This document shows positions 2,211 to 20,844 of a stretch of 32,000 nucleotides of DNA, one piece after another (position 1 is the stretch's first letter; every line of letters begins with the position of its first letter). Source of the DNA: Moraxella nasovis (lineage in GTDB: Bacteria; Pseudomonadota; Gammaproteobacteria; Pseudomonadales; Moraxellaceae); assembly GCF_022701215.1 (NCBI RefSeq), contig NZ_CP089976.1, forward strand, positions 390,001 to 422,000, written 5' to 3'. The notes beneath the pieces are model-generated. The model did no database searches. It saw only the letters and a list, made by a program, of their open reading frames with translations, and had not been told where the DNA came from. A program made the translations under genes and the position numbers.

Positions 2211-2284
2211 TGAGATTATTAACCTACCAACCTAACAATATTTATACCAAGTTTGGTTTTAGAAAAACTAGATTGAACAATTTA

Positions 2285-4168
2285 TTAACTTTGATTAAAT
2301 TTATTATGCCACCTTTCTCCAAAATCAAATAACCTACTATCAGAACACACAACATAAATTACAGACGTATCATCTTTTTTAATTCTTGTTAAAGCCACAT
2401 AAATTAACTCATATGCACATTCTACAAAAGATAAATCATCTAAGATTATCATTAAAGCCTTTGACTCCCAGCCTTTGTAACTGTGAATTGTACAGGCTTT
2501 AATTGTTTGAGCACCTTTAAAGAAATATTGTTTCTTTCTGCGAGACTCCAATTTATCTGTGGAAAATATATCAGTATATCTTTTTCCATTAGATTTTAAG
2601 ACTTCGCATATTTGCAACCCTAGATTATGTGTTGTAGTAATGATAGTTTGGTCGGCAAATGCCATATTTAAACTCCTAGCTACACCTTCAAATTCTAGAA
2701 TATGATTTCTTAAAATTGACTTATCTAAATTTATTTCATTTATCCACCTAAATTGAAAGTTTCCTGCATTACTTGCATCTGATGAAAACATATCATTTTC
2801 ATCAAATTCTATTGGCTCTGGCTTTATGATATTTGAATTTGGTAAGAATGTATCTATATAATCACAAACAAATGGAATGACAGGGAATGGTAATCTATAA
2901 GTGGCGTTTAACTCTGACCAACGACCAGAAAAACCGCAATCGGTCATCGCATCATCAGTCCAAAGATTATTTTTAGCATAAATATCCTGGGTTGAATCTG
3001 CAACTAATAACATTTCACCACCATCATTTAATAGCCTTCTTAATATGTTCCACCATCTTGGATTATAATCTTGACCCTCATCAACTAAGATGGCATCATA
3101 TTTCTCATTAAAAAGCCCTTCATCTAAACATTGCTCTACCAATGCACAAAGTTTATTATCATCAACAAATTCGTCATTTTTTAAATTTTGAAATAAGGCA
3201 TTATATTCTTTATCATACCCTGATTCTATACAAATTCTTGAACATAAATAATGAAAATTAAGCCATACACCTTCTTTTCTTGCTTTTGAATACTCTCTAA
3301 CCGCCAAATCAGTAAGATAATTACACAAAGTAATATTAAAACTAACGACCAATACAGATTTTCCTTGCTCCAATAAATGAGTTGCTTTTTTAGCAACAAC
3401 AATTGACTTTCCTGAACCAGCTGGACCCTTTAAACGTCTATAACCAGACTTTGTGCGAGTTGTCGCAAACTCCAATTGTTTTTTATCCAATTGCAATGGT
3501 TGTCTTTGTTCCTTATTTGCATCAGGCTCTATTAACCAAAACTTTAAATAACTAGCAACAATATCATTCATGGTTGAATTTTTATTATCTAGCAATCGTT
3601 TTGGAAATACATTATTAATATCGTCATAAAAAGATTCTTGGGAAATAACAAAATATTTTGCATAGGGATTCTCTTTATTAAAAATTCTACGCCCCCTATT
3701 TTCAAAAATACTATAAATTCCAGCCTTACTTAACTGCTCTTGTGTTGCCGATGGGAAAACCAAACCACAAAACAACACTCTCTTACCACTTTCAGTACCC
3801 AACTGTGGCGTGTACAGATGAATCATTTCTTTCCTATACAGCAATAATTTATCAACAGGGTTTTCAGGGCGATAAGGTTTTTCCACCCCCTTTTGTGCTT
3901 TTAAATGCAGTTTTCCATTATTGGCATAATCTGAATAATAATGGATAGCATCAAAGTTCCAATTTTTAACTTCAAAAATACAAATACCAACTTTCGGATT
4001 TACAATAATAACATCAGGACAAAGTCCATTAAAAGCAGGTTGAATATAAATTTCCCAATTTGCATTCAAATGTTTATCTAAATACTCAATAAATTGCCTT
4101 TCTCCTGACTCCAAAGGTTGCCGCAAATTATCCCATTCAGACTTTGGTGGCACAATCACTCTTTGCAT
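2285..4168 (-). CDS. NERD (PD-(D/E)xK nuclease-like) domain fused to UvrD/PcrA-like SF1 helicase; candidate single-gene defence protein
   Basis: N-terminus: GERQFIEYL...CPDVIIVNPKVGICIFEVKNW (D...E-x-K, NERD-like). Helicase motifs: QPLQLDKKQLEF (Q-like), GPAGSGKS (Walker A), ILVDEGQDY (motif II), LLVADSTQDIY (III), ATYRLP (IV), TIHSYKGWES (V), LIYVALTRIKK (VI). Start moved to ATG 4168 because GGAG sits 6 nt upstream; the track start at 4198 is TTG. Confidence 0.8.
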   Translation of the reverse strand: MQRVIVPPKSEWDNLRQPLESGERQFIEYLDKHLNANWEIYIQPAFNGLCPDVIIVNPKVGICIFEVKNWNFDAIHYYSDYANNGKLHLKAQKGVEKPYRPENPVDKLLLYRKEMIHLYTPQLGTESGKRVLFCGLVFPSATQEQLSKAGIYSIFENRGRRIFNKENPYAKYFVISQESFYDDINNVFPKRLLDNKNSTMNDIVASYLKFWLIEPDANKEQRQPLQLDKKQLEFATTRTKSGYRRLKGPAGSGKSIVVAKKATHLLEQGKSVLVVSFNITLCNYLTDLAVREYSKARKEGVWLNFHYLCSRICIESGYDKEYNALFQNLKNDEFVDDNKLCALVEQCLDEGLFNEKYDAILVDEGQDYNPRWWNILRRLLNDGGEMLLVADSTQDIYAKNNLWTDDAMTDCGFSGRWSELNATYRLPFPVIPFVCDYIDTFLPNSNIIKPEPIEFDENDMFSSDASNAGNFQFRWINEINLDKSILRNHILEFEGVARSLNMAFADQTIITTTHNLGLQICEVLKSNGKRYTDIFSTDKLESRRKKQYFFKGAQTIKACTIHSYKGWESKALMIILDDLSFVECAYELIYVALTRIKKDDTSVIYVVCSDSRLFDFGERWHNKFNQS

Positions 4169-4200
4169 GATACACTCCATAAAATAAACAACCCCCAACC

Positions 4201-4229
4201 ATCATAGCTAGGGATTGATTATTTTTCAA
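4201..4229 (-). promoter_or_regulatory. candidate sigma70 promoter for the NERD-helicase gene
   Basis: Minus strand reads TTGAAA (4229-4224), 17 nt, TATGAT (4206-4201). It lies just after the valS stop (4234-4236) and about 33 nt upstream of ATG 4168. Confidence 0.4.
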
Positions 4230-7145: not shown

Positions 7146-8042
7146 CTACAAAATGCTATCAGATTTTTTTAATGTCAGCAAATGTCTAATTGTATTATCA
7201 TTGAGTTTACCGATAAACAATCCAAGCATAATGATAATAATTGCGATAAATTGTAATTTTGTTAAATATTCGCCAAATAAGACATAAGCATACAAAGCAG
7301 ATATAGCTGGCTGGCTAAGCACAATTAGCGAAGCGGATATGGCAGTTAAATGCCCCAAAAAATAACTCATGCCACCTTGTCCTAAAACATGAGAAAAAAT
7401 TGCCAATCCTAGTAATGGAATGATGGCGTTGATGCTGGTTGGTAGTGAAAAACCCTCAAATAAAACAAATGGTATTAATGCAATAATAGAACCAATACAT
7501 GAATAATACATGATAACCATAAAATCAATATCTTTTCTTAATTTATATACAGTTACCAAAAAAAGTCCATAAAAAAACGATGTTGCCAATGCCAACAAAT
7601 TTCCTAAAGTATGATTTGAACCTAATTGTGCTTTTTCTAAAAATAGTAAAACAACACCAAAAACCATCACAGGGGCTGAAATCAAAAAAGAAAGCGTAGG
7701 TTTTTCTTTAAATAAATAATAAGAAATTGGCACAACCGTTAAAGCAACAAGGTTGGATAAAAGATTGGCATTAACCACCGTAGTATAAGAAAAAGAGATG
7801 TTCCATAGCACCAGATCCAAAGCTAAAAACACACCAGAGAGCATGGCAAATAATTTGTGCTTATTATTGATACTTAAAGAGCTTTTTTTGTTTCTTTTGC
7901 ATAAAATATAAAATATAGGCAAGGCAAATAACACACGATAAAAAGCGGTGTTAATCGGCTCTAATGCACTATATCTGACAAATATGCCGCCCAATGCCAA
8001 TAACGAAATGCAGATTAAGGCACCAAATATATACTTATTCAC
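7146..8042 (-). CDS. EamA/DMT-superfamily permease (10-TM drug/metabolite transporter)
   Basis: 298 aa, strongly hydrophobic, two-halved EamA-like organisation. GTG start at 8042 with GGAG 7 nt upstream. Visibly AT-rich. Confidence 0.7.
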   Translation of the reverse strand: MNKYIFGALICISLLALGGIFVRYSALEPINTAFYRVLFALPIFYILCKRNKKSSLSINNKHKLFAMLSGVFLALDLVLWNISFSYTTVVNANLLSNLVALTVVPISYYLFKEKPTLSFLISAPVMVFGVVLLFLEKAQLGSNHTLGNLLALATSFFYGLFLVTVYKLRKDIDFMVIMYYSCIGSIIALIPFVLFEGFSLPTSINAIIPLLGLAIFSHVLGQGGMSYFLGHLTAISASLIVLSQPAISALYAYVLFGEYLTKLQFIAIIIIMLGLFIGKLNDNTIRHLLTLKKSDSIL

Positions 8043-16804: not shown

Positions 16805-17230
16805 ATGTTGATGTATCTTAAAGCCTTTCATATTATTGCCGTTATCTGTTGGTTTGCGGGGATTTTTTATTTGCCCCGTTTGTTTGTATATCATGCCATG
16901 AGCGATGATGTCATCAGCCAAGAGCGGTTTGTTGTCATGGAAAGAAAGCTATATCGTGGCATCATGAATCCTGCCATGATGCTAACTTGGCTATTGGGAT
17001 TGTCTATGGTGGTGATGAATTGGGATATTTACAAAACGCAAGGCTGGCTACACGCCAAAATCATCTTGGTGATTTTATTGACCGTGTATCATGTGGTCTG
17101 TGGTAAGTTTCGCCTAAAACTGATGGCTAACCACGCCTACAAATCTCACGTCTATTGGCGATGGTTTAATGAAATCCCTGTGTTTATCTTAATTGGTGTT
17201 GTGCTACTTGTCGTGATTAAGCCGTTTTAG
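16805..17230 (+). CDS. hemJ: protoporphyrinogen oxidase HemJ (UPF0093 family)
   Basis: 141 aa, 4 TM. The N-terminus YLKAFHIIAVICWFAGIFYLPRLFVYH is characteristic of HemJ. Confidence 0.8.
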   Translation: MLMYLKAFHIIAVICWFAGIFYLPRLFVYHAMSDDVISQERFVVMERKLYRGIMNPAMMLTWLLGLSMVVMNWDIYKTQGWLHAKIILVILLTVYHVVCGKFRLKLMANHAYKSHVYWRWFNEIPVFILIGVVLLVVIKPF

Positions 17231-17280
17231 GTAAAGCCATTAGCTATTTTAAGCAAAGTCGTTTTAACCGAAACACCCAA

Positions 17281-17361
17281 CAATATCAGCATCACAATAT
17301 CAGCATCACAATATCAGCATCACAATATCAGCATCACAATATCAGCATCACAATATCAGCA
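17281..17361. repeat. 14-bp tandem repeat, 5 perfect copies plus a partial sixth
   Basis: CAATATCAGCATCA repeated head-to-tail at 17281, 17295, 17309, 17323 and 17337, with a degenerate copy from 17351. It lies in the intergenic region between the convergent 3' ends of hemJ and the 153-aa ORF. Confidence 0.95.
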
Positions 17362-17470
17362 CACAACAAGCCAAATACTCAGCACAGCATATTTAGCATA
17401 GCCATCAAAAACACACCACAGCTTTCAATGACAAAGGCAAAAAGTGGATAAAGACAAAAAAGGATAAAAG

Positions 17471-17932
17471 TTAGCCCTGCATTTTGATGGTTTTTTGTTG
17501 TTTGGCGATATCTTTACCCATCAGCACCGATTGGGCGACCATCAGCTCTTTTTCATGCTCAAATCCTGAAATTTGCCACGTTTTATCCTTATCCTTGATA
17601 ATCAGCGTGTCATTGGCGACAATGATTTGGGCGGTTGGGCTAAGCTGTACGGCATGATGACCACAACAAAAGGATTGATTTTTTAGCACCAAATGACCAG
17701 ATGTGATAGATAGACGGCTTTTGGCTTTCGCCTTGATTGTATTAAAAATAAAAATCACCACCGCAAATACCGCCATCATACCAATCGTTATCTGTACCTT
17801 TTGGGTCATCGCTACCACCGCCACGATGAGTGCAAGCACCACCAAAACGATTGACACCCAAAACAGCGAGTTACTCTGTTTGCCATGCAGTGCAATCTCT
17901 ACGCCATCATCTATTACTTTTAGCATCACCAA
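17471..17932 (-). CDS. hypothetical membrane protein (2 predicted TM)
   Basis: 153-aa ORF whose start overlaps the rph stop by 7 nt. TM segments [20 protein letters not shown] and [14 protein letters not shown]. No family recognised. Confidence 0.5.
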
Positions 17933-20346: not shown

Positions 20347-20844
20347 ATGGCGATACAAGCTTGGCATTGGCTCGTTTTTGGGTTGGTGCTTTGCCTATTA
20401 GAGATATTCGTACCCACCTTTTTCTTGCTGTGGTTTGGGCTGTCGGCGATATTGGTGGCACTCATCGCATGGGTATTATCCCCATCAATGTCTGTCTTAG
20501 TTGTCTTGTGGCTTATTGTTTCTGTACTGCTCTTGTGGCTTATTGTTTCTGTACTGCTTTGTGCTACTTGGTTTGCATTCTTTAAACCCAAGATGACAAA
20601 TAAAACCACGGCAGGGCTTGGGGGTAGCAGTATTATTGGTGATACAGGGGTCATCATCAATGCACAAGGTCATTTGGGCGTGGTGCAATTTGCCGTGCCA
20701 AAACTTGGGTCAAGGCAGTGGGAATGCCAAAGCGATGAGATATTGATGGTGGGTGATGGTGTACAAATCACTCAAATCATCGGCAATAAACTGATTGTAC
20801 AAAAACATCTTATTGAAAAAACATCTTATCAAAACCACGCTTGA
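20347..20844 (+). CDS. NfeD-family membrane protein (YbbJ-like)
   Basis: 165 aa with N-terminal TM helices and a C-terminal OB-fold-like tail (GHLGVVQFAV...WECQSDEILMVGDGVQITQIIGNKLIVQ). It lies directly upstream of an SPFH gene, the classic NfeD-SPFH pairing. Confidence 0.8.
   Translation: MAIQAWHWLVFGLVLCLLEIFVPTFFLLWFGLSAILVALIAWVLSPSMSVLVVLWLIVSVLLLWLIVSVLLCATWFAFFKPKMTNKTTAGLGGSSIIGDTGVIINAQGHLGVVQFAVPKLGSRQWECQSDEILMVGDGVQITQIIGNKLIVQKHLIEKTSYQNHA
20505..20558 (+). repeat. perfect 27-bp tandem duplication inside nfeD (in frame)
   Basis: CTTGTGGCTTATTGTTTCTGTACTGCT occurs at 20505-20531 and again at 20532-20558, giving the repeated peptide LWLIVSVLL-LWLIVSVLL. Confidence 0.95.

What the first reader, a model, noticed from the sequence alone, without database searches (positions are those of the whole stretch)
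2285..4229. AT-rich single-gene islet encoding a NERD nuclease-like domain fused to an SF1 (UvrD-like) helicase: candidate stand-alone defence gene
Seen in the sequence: a 627-aa protein has an N-terminal NERD-type PD-(D/E)xK signature (PDVIIV...FEVK). A segment of about 140 aa follows that I cannot assign, then a full set of UvrD/PcrA-type motifs (GPAGSGKS, LVDEGQDY, ADSTQDIY, TIHSYKGWES, YVALTRIKK). The gene is much more AT-rich than its neighbours: my spot counts on 60-nt lines gave about 25-33% GC inside it versus about 45% in valS. It sits between a conserved deacetylase gene and valS. It has its own TTGAAA-N17-TATGAT promoter and a GGAG RBS directly after the valS stop. There is no partner gene, integrase or flanking repeat. 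From established knowledge, NERD is a predicted nuclease domain, and nuclease plus SF1-helicase fusions act as single-protein anti-phage or anti-plasmid factors (for example staphylococcal Nhi) or as helicase components of other systems (GajB). My inference is that this is a horizontally acquired one-gene immunity module, possibly a distinct Nhi-like family with a novel central domain.
Basis: partly seen in the sequence, partly recalled or inferred. Interest (0 to 1): 0.78.

Follow-up and report, generated by a model that had tools for sequence, protein, structure and literature searches.

The report
Solitary nuclease-helicase gene in defence hotspot
A single AT-rich gene next to valS in Moraxella nasovis encodes a DNA-cutting domain fused to a DNA-unwinding motor; it sits where related species carry known anti-phage systems, and it belongs to a widespread, already catalogued family that nobody has tested.

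Summary
Window 2285-4168 (-) encodes an intact 627-aa protein with a NERD PD-(D/E)xK nuclease domain and all UvrD-type SF1 helicase motifs. Its GC is 32% (GC3 22%), against 47% in valS.

The defence reading is supported by context only. In three other Moraxella species the same deacetylase|valS junction holds Zorya II, three type II R-M systems, or an unknown gene pair. Family members elsewhere sit beside or inside type I R-M, BREX, Hma and Gabija loci, and most have no conserved partner gene.

Three points need correcting:
- The family is not new. It matches PADLOC model C3a187 'NERD+UvrD' full-length (E=1e-106). That model comes from a 2018 list of predicted type III CRISPR accessory genes. 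There are 536 family clusters at 50% identity.
- It is not Nhi. Nhi and Nhi-like proteins use a DUF2075 helicase.
- The 'novel central domain' is the C-terminal half of an extended NERD fold plus a linker.

The claimed promoter exists and is conserved in one relative, but it overlaps a strong valS terminator hairpin and is not statistically distinctive. dN/dS is 0.08, and dS equals that of valS, so the gene is a long-term resident under selection, not a recent arrival.

Verdict: a new member of a known, experimentally untested kind.

The parts
2285..4168 (-). CDS, 627 aa: NERD nuclease fused to a UvrD-type SF1 helicase. It is 100% identical to a Moraxella nasovis protein annotated 'UvrD-helicase domain-containing protein'.
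   Evidence: dN/dS 0.08 against the L081 homologue
3524..4168 (-). Residues 1-215: one compact, extended NERD / PD-(D/E)xK nuclease domain.
   Evidence: Pfam NERD covers residues 21-129. The AF2 model of residues 1-225 has pLDDT 91.4 and pTM 0.88. The only sensible fold hits are PD-(D/E)xK nucleases: NucS/EndoMS, N.BspD6I, XisH, Can2 and MmcB. All are weak.
3965..4015 (-). Catalytic D52 ... E66-x-K68 of the PD-(D/E)xK site. E23, further upstream, is also invariant.
   Evidence: invariant in 63 family members
3461..3523 (-). Residues 216-236: a low-confidence linker followed by the Q-motif helix that leads into the helicase.
   Evidence: pLDDT <50 at residues 215-217; Q221, R222 and Q231 invariant
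2288..3460 (-). Residues 237-627: compact SF1 helicase core with UvrD-type motifs I, Ia, II, III, V and VI. It has a small 1B insert and no recognisable 2B/UvrD_C domain.
3404..3427 (-). Walker A motif, GPAGSGKS
3068..3082 (-). Motif II, DEGQD (Walker B)
4181..4225 (-). A-tract, 13-bp hairpin and U-tract directly after the valS stop codon. Probably the valS intrinsic terminator.
   Evidence: terminator-like site; -20.9 kcal/mol, z -5.68, 0 of 200 shuffles as stable
4201..4229 (-). Promoter-like TTGAAA-17-TATGAT, overlapping the hairpin.
   Evidence: 10 of 12 matches, but the count in the region is not above shuffles. The -35 box is conserved and the -10 box reads TATAAT in L081.
4175..4178 (-). 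GGAG ribosome-binding site, 6 nt before ATG 4168
2211..2284 (.). 74-bp convergent intergenic spacer to the deacetylase gene. It has no significant structure and is not conserved in other Moraxella.

Best explanation
The gene encodes an autonomous, single-polypeptide nuclease-helicase of the catalogued but untested 'NERD+UvrD' (C3a187) family. It occupies a defence-gene hotspot at the 3' end of valS.

Proposed mechanism, all of it inferred:
1. The UvrD-type SF1 motor loads on a DNA feature typical of invading phage or plasmid DNA, such as a free end, a nick or a replication intermediate.
2. It translocates using ATP, probably 3'->5' as SF1A motors do.
3. It feeds the strand to the N-terminal Mg-dependent PD-(D/E)xK (NERD) site, which cuts repeatedly and destroys the invader. 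This is the same logic as Cas3, RecB/AddA, Dna2 and Nhi.

Shown here: domain identity, conservation of the catalytic residues, purifying selection, variable presence at the hotspot, and defence-island neighbourhoods.

Inferred: that it protects, what its substrate is, its polarity, and how it tells self from non-self.
For: Domains and residues:
- Pfam NERD and UvrD-helicase both score above their cut-offs.
- The match to PADLOC C3a187 is full-length (E = 1.2e-106).
- E23, D52, E66, K68, Walker A, DEGQD and motifs III, V and VI are invariant in 63 homologues.
- The AF2 model is confident (pLDDT 86.5, pTM 0.84). Its fold hits are SF1 helicases, including the nuclease-helicase Dna2.
- dN/dS is 0.08.

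Hotspot:
- The same junction holds ZorA2/B2/E2 in M. canis.
- It holds three type II R-M systems in M. lacunata.
- It holds an unknown pair in Moraxella sp. VT-16-12.
- None of the three carries this gene.

Islands:
- hsdM-hsdS-[gene]-hsdR on an A. pittii plasmid and in L090.
- Type I R-M next to it in L082, L083 and L085.
- Neighbours matching BrxL (1e-251), HmaC (E = 0), GajA (5e-238), BrxHI (5e-260) and an Old-like protein.

Autonomy:
- Across 87 loci no neighbour family recurs in more than 8.
- The one recurrent upstream pair also exists without the gene.

Mobility and spread:
- 20 plasmid records carry a homologue.
- 536 clusters at 50% identity have E <= 1e-30.
Against: - I found no experimental test of any family member (paper searches).
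- All defence evidence is guilt by association, and the neighbour census has no matched control.
- Seven independent loci place the gene in a tight operon behind an ABC ATPase and a ~300-336-aa protein. Some members may therefore need partners.
- The original C3a187 label implies a CRISPR accessory role.
- A NERD domain can cut RNA rather than DNA, as reported for ZwsA in a preprint.
- The rest of the M. nasovis genome could not be inspected for trans-acting partners.
Confidence: 0.6

Rival explanations
1. It is an auxiliary effector rather than an autonomous system. It would processively degrade DNA first marked or nicked by another system encoded elsewhere: type I R-M, a type III CRISPR-Cas system, or an ABC-ATPase sensor pair. 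This would resemble the roles of Cas3 or GajB.
For: - The family was first flagged as 'Cas type 3 associated'.
- The gene sits between hsdS and hsdR, the position PrrC occupies, in Acinetobacter and in L090.
- Tight ATPase + ~305-aa + NERD-UvrD operons occur in L083, L085, L092, L099, L119 and L188, with a partial one in L095.
- ABC ATPase + NERD is a validated architecture, HEC-02.
Against: - In M. nasovis both neighbours are housekeeping genes, and the 32-kb window holds no defence gene or CRISPR array.
- Most of the 87 loci have no recurrent partner.
- The ATPase pair occurs without the gene in Pectobacterium and V. cholerae, and six genes away from it in L126.
- No cas family appears among the 25 most frequent PADLOC families matched by the neighbours.
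Confidence: 0.2
2. It is a housekeeping DNA repair or recombination enzyme, for example an end-processing or fork-processing nuclease-helicase, that merely happens to be AT-rich.
For: - It has UvrD-type motifs, and the fold resembles UvrD, PcrA, Rep and Dna2.
- It is under strong purifying selection.
- It lies next to valS in three lineages.
Against: - It is absent from the junction in M. lacunata, M. canis and Moraxella sp. VT-16-12. By valS identity these are closer to M. nasovis than the lineages that keep the gene.
- NCBIfam scores are at most 25 bits, against cut-offs of 419-1697, for UvrD, Rep, PcrA, RecB, AddA, helicase IV and HelD.
- Its distribution is patchy and partly plasmid-borne.
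- It keeps defence-island company.
Confidence: 0.08
3. It serves a mobile element, for example in plasmid or ICE maintenance, exclusion of competing elements, or an addiction function. The chromosomal copy would be a stranded remnant of such an element.
For: - 20 plasmid records carry it, 9 of them conjugative or mobilizable.
- In Sphingobium it lies near ParB and integrases.
- 8 full-length hits occur in IMG/VR contigs.
Against: - There is no integrase, repeat, att site or other element gene around the M. nasovis copy.
- No homologue is found in 50,697 isolated phage genomes.
- On the A. pittii plasmid examined it sits inside a type I R-M locus, which is itself a defence context; on the Sphingobium plasmid it does not.
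- This reading also overlaps with an anti-plasmid defence role.
Confidence: 0.07

Closest known systems
C3a187 'NERD+UvrD' (Shah et al. 2018, RNA Biol, PMC6546367; PADLOC-DB model PDLC01087)
   Same: Full-length profile match: E = 1.2e-106, residues 8-622 against profile positions 7-555 of 559. Domain order is the same. The N-terminal and C-terminal halves each match on their own.
   Different: That cluster had three members and was defined by adjacency to type III-A/B cas cassettes. Here no cas gene or array lies within 32 kb. Family neighbours are mostly R-M, BREX, Hma and Gabija genes rather than cas genes. The function was only predicted.
Nhi (S. epidermidis) and Nhi-like (Millman et al. 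2022)
   Same: Both are one polypeptide with an N-terminal nuclease and an SF1-type helicase. Both are stand-alone and reside in defence islands.
   Different: The Nhi helicase is DUF2075/PF09848. This protein has PF00580/AAA_19 with UvrD-type motifs, no PF09848 hit and no Nhi model hit. In Plesiomonas a separate DUF2075 gene (PDC-S41) sits right beside the NERD-UvrD gene, so they are two distinct families.
Gabija GajB
   Same: Both are UvrD-like SF1 helicases used in defence. The match is local, around motifs II-III (E = 4e-12).
   Different: GajB has no nuclease domain and works with GajA. Here the match covers only about 45 residues, there is no GajA neighbour, and the nuclease is fused.
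RT-associated NERD-helicase of UG34 (PADLOC RTasNERD-Hel; Mestre et al. 2022, PMC9226505)
   Same: Same architecture, an N-terminal NERD domain followed by a helicase. It is the second-best PADLOC hit (E = 3e-12, residues 51-401).
   Different: The similarity is weak, and that family is partnered with a UG34 reverse transcriptase. There is no RT here.
RecB/AddA, Dna2 and Cas3 (processive helicase-nucleases)
   Same: Each couples an ATP-driven motor to a nuclease on one chain. RecB, AddA and Dna2 use a PD-(D/E)xK nuclease. Dna2 appears among the fold hits.
   Different: In RecB and AddA the nuclease is C-terminal and they act in multi-subunit complexes. Dna2 is SF1B and has an Fe-S cluster. Cas3 is an HD nuclease plus an SF2 helicase. 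NCBIfam scores are far below the recB and addA cut-offs.
HEC-02 (ABC ATPase + NERD protein; Payne et al. 2024 preprint, doi 10.1101/2024.01.29.577857)
   Same: A NERD nuclease acts as the defence effector. A minority of family members sit behind an ABC ATPase inside R-M or Hma islands.
   Different: HEC-02B is not a helicase fusion and did not appear among the PADLOC hits. The M. nasovis gene has no ATPase partner.

Membership tests
C3a187 NERD+UvrD (PADLOC PDLC01087) | Full-length match to the family profile | tested here: met
   E = 1.2e-106, 355.8 bits, residues 8-622 against profile positions 7-555 of 559. The halves match separately at 8e-31 and 3e-69.
C3a187 NERD+UvrD (PADLOC PDLC01087) | Encoded adjacent to a type III CRISPR-cas cassette (the basis of the 'Cas type 3 associated' name) | tested here: not met
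   The 32-kb window has no CRISPR-like array, no Rfam hit and only housekeeping Pfam families. No cas family is among the top PADLOC families of 149 neighbours. The rest of the genome was not available.
NERD (Pfam PF08378), PD-(D/E)xK superfamily | Profile score above the gathering threshold, and the D...(D/E)xK catalytic residues | tested here: met
   30.5 bits against a cut-off of 22.1. D52, E66 and K68, plus E23, are invariant in 63 sequences. The secondary-structure order is alpha-beta-beta-beta-alpha-beta. Fold hits are weak and are all PD-(D/E)xK nucleases.
UvrD/Rep/PcrA-type SF1A helicase (Pfam PF00580) | N-terminal helicase domain profile, and motifs I, Ia, II, III, V and VI | tested here: met
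   54.6 bits against a cut-off of 23. The motifs are located and invariant. Foldseek hits UvrD, PcrA and Rep with TM 0.42-0.45.
UvrD/Rep/PcrA-type SF1A helicase (Pfam PF00580) | UvrD_C / 2B accessory domain, and orthology to the housekeeping UvrD, Rep or PcrA | tested here: not met
   UvrD_C_2 scores 12 bits against a cut-off of 27.4. The NCBIfam uvrD, rep and pcrA models score 18-25 bits against cut-offs above 900. The helicase part is only about 390 aa.
UvrD/Rep/PcrA-type SF1A helicase (Pfam PF00580) | 3'->5' translocation polarity | not testable with these tools
   The top Foldseek E-values go to SF1B proteins (Upf1, Sen1), while UvrD gives longer alignments. Polarity needs biochemistry.
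Nhi / Nhi-like | DUF2075 (PF09848) helicase domain after an N-terminal nuclease | tested here: not met
   PF09848 is absent from the Pfam hits down to E = 1. The definition comes from Millman et al.. No model named Nhi is among the PADLOC hits listed (the best 25 of 31 for the whole protein and of 35 for the C-terminal half, all of those for the N-terminal half). I could not verify that PADLOC 2.0.0 contains an Nhi model.
Nhi / Nhi-like | Single-gene anti-phage activity that targets phage replication intermediates | not testable with these tools
   Requires phage challenge experiments and biochemistry.
Gabija (GajB) | Full-length GajB profile match and an adjacent GajA (ATPase-TOPRIM) gene | tested here: not met
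   Only local matches of about 45 residues. The neighbours are valS and a deacetylase.
Defence-island / hotspot cargo (operational definition) | Variable presence at a conserved junction that holds known defence systems in relatives, and family members enriched next to known systems | tested here: met
   (Zorya II; type II R-M systems). (type I R-M, BREX, Hma, Gabija). Caveat: the neighbour census has no matched control.

The most novel reading that the evidence does not exclude
The NERD+UvrD family is a widespread, autonomous single-protein immunity system. It would be mechanistically separate from Nhi (DUF2075), Hna and Gabija, and it has been overlooked because it was filed as a minor type III CRISPR accessory. 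In addition, the 3' end of valS is an undescribed defence-gene hotspot in Moraxella. The M. nasovis gene is solitary and compact, which would make it a clean entry point for showing how a minimal UvrD motor plus a NERD nuclease tells foreign DNA from self DNA.
Probability: 0.45. Interest if true: 0.55.

Novelty: new member of a known kind. Interest (0 to 1): 0.35.

Why it matters
If the family does protect cells, it would add a validated single-gene nuclease-helicase system with hundreds of sequence clusters across Proteobacteria, cyanobacteria, Firmicutes and plasmids. It would also give a minimal model, a 390-aa motor plus a 215-aa nuclease, for processive degradation of invader DNA. The valS-3' junction could be mined as a hotspot for further Moraxella defence cargo. 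One example is the unassigned NA37-like + membrane protein pair in Moraxella sp. VT-16-12. As it stands, the finding is a sound but unsurprising candidate of a type that defence-prediction databases already list.

Tried and rejected
Interpretations rejected:
- Nhi membership. There is no DUF2075 domain and no Nhi model hit.
- GajB membership. Only a local match of about 45 residues.
- A novel central domain. Residues 1-215 model as one compact domain with PD-(D/E)xK topology.
- An obligate three-gene system with an ABC ATPase and a ~305-aa protein. I pursued this through. The triad is real in seven loci. However, the pair occurs without the helicase in Pectobacterium and V. cholerae, and the helicase mostly occurs without the pair. 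I therefore rejected it as a requirement.
- Type III CRISPR linkage. Not seen.
- Recent horizontal transfer. dS equals that of valS, although dS is near saturation.

Searches that found nothing or could not run:
- Exact-sequence look-up of the deacetylase found no contig.
- phmmer against PDB sequences found nothing.
- Isolated phage genomes gave no match.
- Rfam gave no match.
- The deacetylase-side spacer has no significant RNA structure.
Full report
**What is there**

The window holds an intact ORF on the minus strand at 2285-4198. The start is ATG 4168, which gives 627 aa.
- This ATG, the GGAG six bases upstream, and most of the 65-bp spacer back to the valS stop codon are conserved in the closest metagenomic homologue (L081, 79% protein identity).
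- The alternative upstream starts are not conserved there.
- The protein is 100% identical to a Moraxella nasovis entry on a 2.03-Mb contig.

Domain assignments:
- NERD covers residues 21-129 (30.5 bits, cut-off 22.1).
- UvrD-helicase scores 54.6 bits (cut-off 23), and AAA_19 also matches.
- UvrD_C_2 is below its threshold.

In an alignment of 63 full-length homologues at 40-79% identity, these positions are invariant:
- E23, D52, E66 and K68;
- the Walker A motif and DEGQD;
- D391/Q394/D395/Y397;
- T560/S563/K565-E568;
- Y590/T594/R595.

Composition:
- The gene's GC is 0.321 and its GC3 0.225.
- valS is 0.466/0.472 and the window average is 0.424.
- This is the lowest GC3 of the 27 ORFs examined in the window.

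The flanking genes are a Hist_deacetyl-family deacetylase and valS. The rest of the 32 kb is housekeeping: NhaA, CoaBC, Mdh, RNase PH, BioB and others. There is no integrase, transposase, cas gene, CRISPR array or Rfam element. No meaningful flanking repeats were found.

**Expression signals**

The TTGAAA-17-TATGAT element is real, at 4229-4201. Two caveats apply:
- Promoter-like hexamer pairs are no more frequent in this AT-rich stretch than in shuffled sequence (11 found, 10.1 expected).
- The -10 box lies inside a 13-bp hairpin with an A-tract before it and a U-tract after it (4225-4181). The hairpin folds at -20.9 kcal/mol, z = -5.7, and none of 200 shuffles does as well. It looks like the valS intrinsic terminator.

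The two readings are compatible. A transcript starting near 4194 would lack the 5' arm of the hairpin. In L081 the -35 box is identical and the -10 box reads TATAAT. Still, an independent promoter is inferred, not shown.

**The 'unassigned' 140 residues**

The full-length AlphaFold2 model is confident (pLDDT 86.5, pTM 0.84). Residues 1-225 modelled alone give pLDDT 91.4 and pTM 0.88, which indicates one compact domain.

The order of secondary-structure elements is:
- helix 21-33, carrying E23;
- strand 39-42;
- strand 53-57, directly after D52;
- strand 61-67, carrying E66, with K68 next;
- a hairpin at 76-92;
- helix 104-119;
- strand 132-137;
- helices 143-157;
- strand 172-175.

This is the alpha-beta-beta-beta-alpha-beta core of a PD-(D/E)xK nuclease, extended by one more helix-strand unit. 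Residues 215-217 form a low-confidence linker. Residues 225-236 carry the helicase Q-motif helix (Q231 is invariant).

The helicase part is compact, about 390 aa. It has a small helical 1B insert and no recognisable 2B domain. Its fold hits are generic SF1 enzymes: Upf1, Sen1, UvrD, PcrA, Rep, Dna2, SLFN11 and RecD, with TM 0.33-0.45. Motifs II, III, V and VI are of the UvrD type, but polarity cannot be settled in silico.

**What family is it**

PADLOC gives one overwhelming hit, PDLC01087 'C3a187', described as 'NERD+UvrD' (E = 1.2e-106, end to end). The name traces to Shah et al. 2018. There, C3a means 'Cas type 3 Associated', and cluster 187 had three members (example Dole_0738). It was predicted, without experiment, to supply helicase and nuclease function to type III CRISPR systems.

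- NCBI already names relatives 'nuclease-related domain-containing DEAD/DEAH box helicase'.
- An exhaustive search of 1.84 billion cluster representatives finds 536 at E <= 1e-30.
- Homologues occur in Acinetobacter, Psychrobacter, Pseudomonas, Plesiomonas, Photobacterium and Methylococcales.
- They also occur on 20 plasmid records from sphingomonads, cyanobacteria, Bacillus, Klebsiella and Deinococcus.
- None occurs in 50,697 isolated phage genomes.

The family is therefore known and catalogued, but I found no paper testing it.

It is not Nhi. Millman et al. define Nhi and Nhi-like proteins by an N-terminal nuclease plus DUF2075/PF09848. That domain is absent here. The N-terminal half alone hits nothing in PADLOC except C3a187. 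In Plesiomonas a DUF2075 gene (PDC-S41) sits right next to the NERD-UvrD gene as a separate entity. GajB matches cover only about 45 residues around motifs II-III. Housekeeping UvrD, Rep, PcrA, RecB, AddA, helicase IV and HelD models score at most 25 bits, against cut-offs of 419-1697.

**Context in Moraxella**

Using the deacetylase as an anchor in one genome per species, three Moraxella species keep the deacetylase and valS convergent but carry different cargo between them:

| Species | Cargo at the junction |
|---|---|
| M. canis | Complete Zorya type II: ZorA2 9e-82, ZorB2 2e-89, ZorE2 1e-76 |
| M. lacunata | 6.4 kb with three type II R-M systems, including DpnII |
| Moraxella sp. VT-16-12 | An NA37-like protein plus a membrane protein, with no PADLOC match |

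None of the three has the NERD-UvrD gene. All cargo is oriented like valS and abuts its stop codon. The intergenic sequences are unrelated between these species. The junction is thus a defence-gene hotspot.

Conversely, two metagenomic lineages carry homologues at 79% and 66% identity directly after valS. Their valS is only 71-72% identical to that of M. nasovis. That is more distant than the three species above, whose valS is 76-82% identical. One of these lineages has a different far flank. In both, the gene is again about 33% GC in a roughly 42% GC background.

Between M. nasovis and L081 the gene has dN 0.136, dS 1.70 and dN/dS 0.08. valS has dS 1.62. dS is near saturation, so this is not precise. 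Even so, the gene looks like a long-standing, selected resident of the hotspot that other lineages have swapped out. It does not look like a recent import.

**Context of the family elsewhere**

I collected 87 loci with full-length homologues from metagenomes, IMG/VR and exact-protein look-ups, and clustered their neighbours. The most frequent neighbour families are:
- type I R-M hsdM and hsdS, each in 8 loci;
- an ABC-type ATPase at position -2, in 7 loci;
- a ~305-aa protein with no Pfam domain at position -1, in 7 loci;
- valS, in 2 loci.

Everything else is sporadic.

On an Acinetobacter pittii plasmid and in L090 the order is hsdM-hsdS-[NERD-UvrD]-hsdR. That is the slot the anticodon nuclease PrrC occupies in classical loci (my own knowledge).

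A PADLOC census of 149 genes within two positions of the helicase, with follow-up on ten large neighbours, found:

| Neighbour match | E-value | Locus |
|---|---|---|
| BrxL | 1e-251 | L123 |
| HmaC | 0 | L133 |
| GajA | 5e-238 | L089 |
| BrxHI | 5e-260 | L134 |
| Old-like protein | 3e-42 | L164 |
| PDC-M57A | 6e-32 | L135 |

Several type I methylase and specificity subunits also appeared. I did not run a matched control, so this is qualitative. These particular matches are unambiguous, however.

**Is it really stand-alone?**

The ATPase / ~305-aa / NERD-UvrD triad is tight: the ATPase and ~305-aa ORFs abut or overlap, and 7-16 bp (109 bp in L085) separate the latter from the helicase gene. 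It recurs in L083, L085/86, L092, L099 and L119, in the more divergent L188-190, and partially in L095.
- The two accessory proteins are homologous between loci. The ~305-aa proteins share 29% identity (E = 3e-44), and the ATPase segments share 41-56%.
- This triad includes the ~800-aa relatives that are 56-58% identical to the Moraxella protein.
- However, the ~305-aa family (119 clusters, all 'hypothetical') occurs with its ATPase but without any NERD-UvrD gene in Pectobacterium and Vibrio cholerae type I R-M islands. In L126 the pair lies six to seven genes away from the helicase.
- Most helicase loci, including 40 of the 46 with at least 3 kb upstream, lack the pair.

The modules are therefore separable. 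The autonomous reading is favoured for the M. nasovis gene. A supporting role for other systems remains the main rival.

**Mechanism**

Established:
- an intact PD-(D/E)xK site;
- an intact SF1 ATPase/helicase motif set on one chain;
- strong purifying selection;
- the defence-type genomic behaviour described above.

Inferred from how RecB/AddA, Dna2, Cas3 and Nhi work (my own knowledge):
- The motor loads on ends, nicks or replication intermediates of invading DNA.
- It translocates with ATP.
- It presents the strand to the NERD site for repeated cleavage.

Unknown:
- the substrate, whether DNA or RNA (a NERD RNase, ZwsA, has just been reported in a preprint);
- the polarity;
- the trigger;
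- how self DNA is spared;
- whether the outcome is direct clearance of the invader or abortive infection.

**Verdict**

The sequence observation is correct, and the 'candidate defence gene' reading is reasonable. It is now backed by a hotspot comparison and by family-wide neighbourhoods. The gene is nonetheless an ordinary new member of an already catalogued, untested family. It is not an Nhi relative, and it has no novel domain. Interest is moderate to low (0.35). The value lies in a clean, compact candidate for experiments and in the valS-3' hotspot.

Noticed in passing
window 7146-8042 (-): A second AT-rich single-gene islet lies on the other side of valS. It encodes an EamA-family transporter (GC 0.321, GC3 0.288). 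The gene is absent between valS and the ybjQ genes in L081, and it is not found in the Moraxella loci L001, L002 or L051.
   Followed up: partly
L001 10975-13351 (-) (Moraxella sp. VT-16-12): At the same deacetylase|valS hotspot lies a two-gene cargo. One gene encodes a 384-aa NA37/YejK-like nucleoid-associated protein (Pfam 5e-24). The other encodes a 409-aa protein with C-terminal hydrophobic helices. Neither has a PADLOC match. Because of its position, this pair is a possible unrecognised defence system.
   Followed up: partly
L002 10893-13538 (M. canis); L051 10914-17315 (M. lacunata): The hotspot holds a complete Zorya type II system (ZorA2/B2/E2) in M. canis. In M. lacunata it holds three stacked type II R-M systems, including DpnII. 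There the first cargo gene starts 3 nt after the valS stop codon, with no terminator between them.
   Followed up: yes
L085 7239-9892; L083 6798-9992; L195 6358-8927; L197 6229-8927: A recurrent two-gene module sits inside type I R-M islands. It pairs an ABC ATPase (AAA_15/AAA_21, with partial hits to PDC-M55A, NsnB and HEC-03B) with a ~305-aa protein that has no Pfam domain (119 clusters, all annotated 'hypothetical'). It occurs with the NERD-UvrD gene downstream in seven loci, and without it in Pectobacterium and V. cholerae. The ~305-aa partner matches no PADLOC model at E <= 1e-5, apart from a weak local BrxL hit for the L083 copy.
   Followed up: partly
P0009 / L083 10001-10520; also P0005, P0010, P0014: A subclade 56-65% identical to the Moraxella protein carries an extra N-terminal segment of about 170 aa with no Pfam match. 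P0009 and P0014 sit in the ATPase triads. P0005 sits next to a reverse transcriptase (RVT_1).
   Followed up: partly
P0213, P0231, P0259, P0261: Some relatives are only about 420-440 aa long and align from about residue 200 onward. They are helicase-only versions without the NERD domain. They could be fragments, split genes or a distinct architecture.
   Followed up: no
L186 3924-12464 (A. pittii plasmid pAR3651_1); L090 6782-13881: The NERD-UvrD gene is inserted between hsdS and hsdR of a type I R-M operon. This is the position the PrrC anticodon nuclease occupies in classical loci.
   Followed up: partly
window 17280-17366: An almost perfect tandem repeat: a 14-nt unit (ACAATATCAGCATC) in 6.3 copies with 98% matches. 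It lies in the spacer between ORFs 16805-17230 (+) and 17471-17932 (-). A 27-nt repeat in 2.3-2.6 copies lies inside ORF 20347-20844.
   Followed up: no
L192 1012-9077: Upstream of a 55%-identical homologue (P0015) lies a cluster of an HSP70-like ATPase, a radical-SAM protein, two unknown proteins and a 1177-aa protein with three AAA domains. This may be another uncharacterised island module.
   Followed up: no
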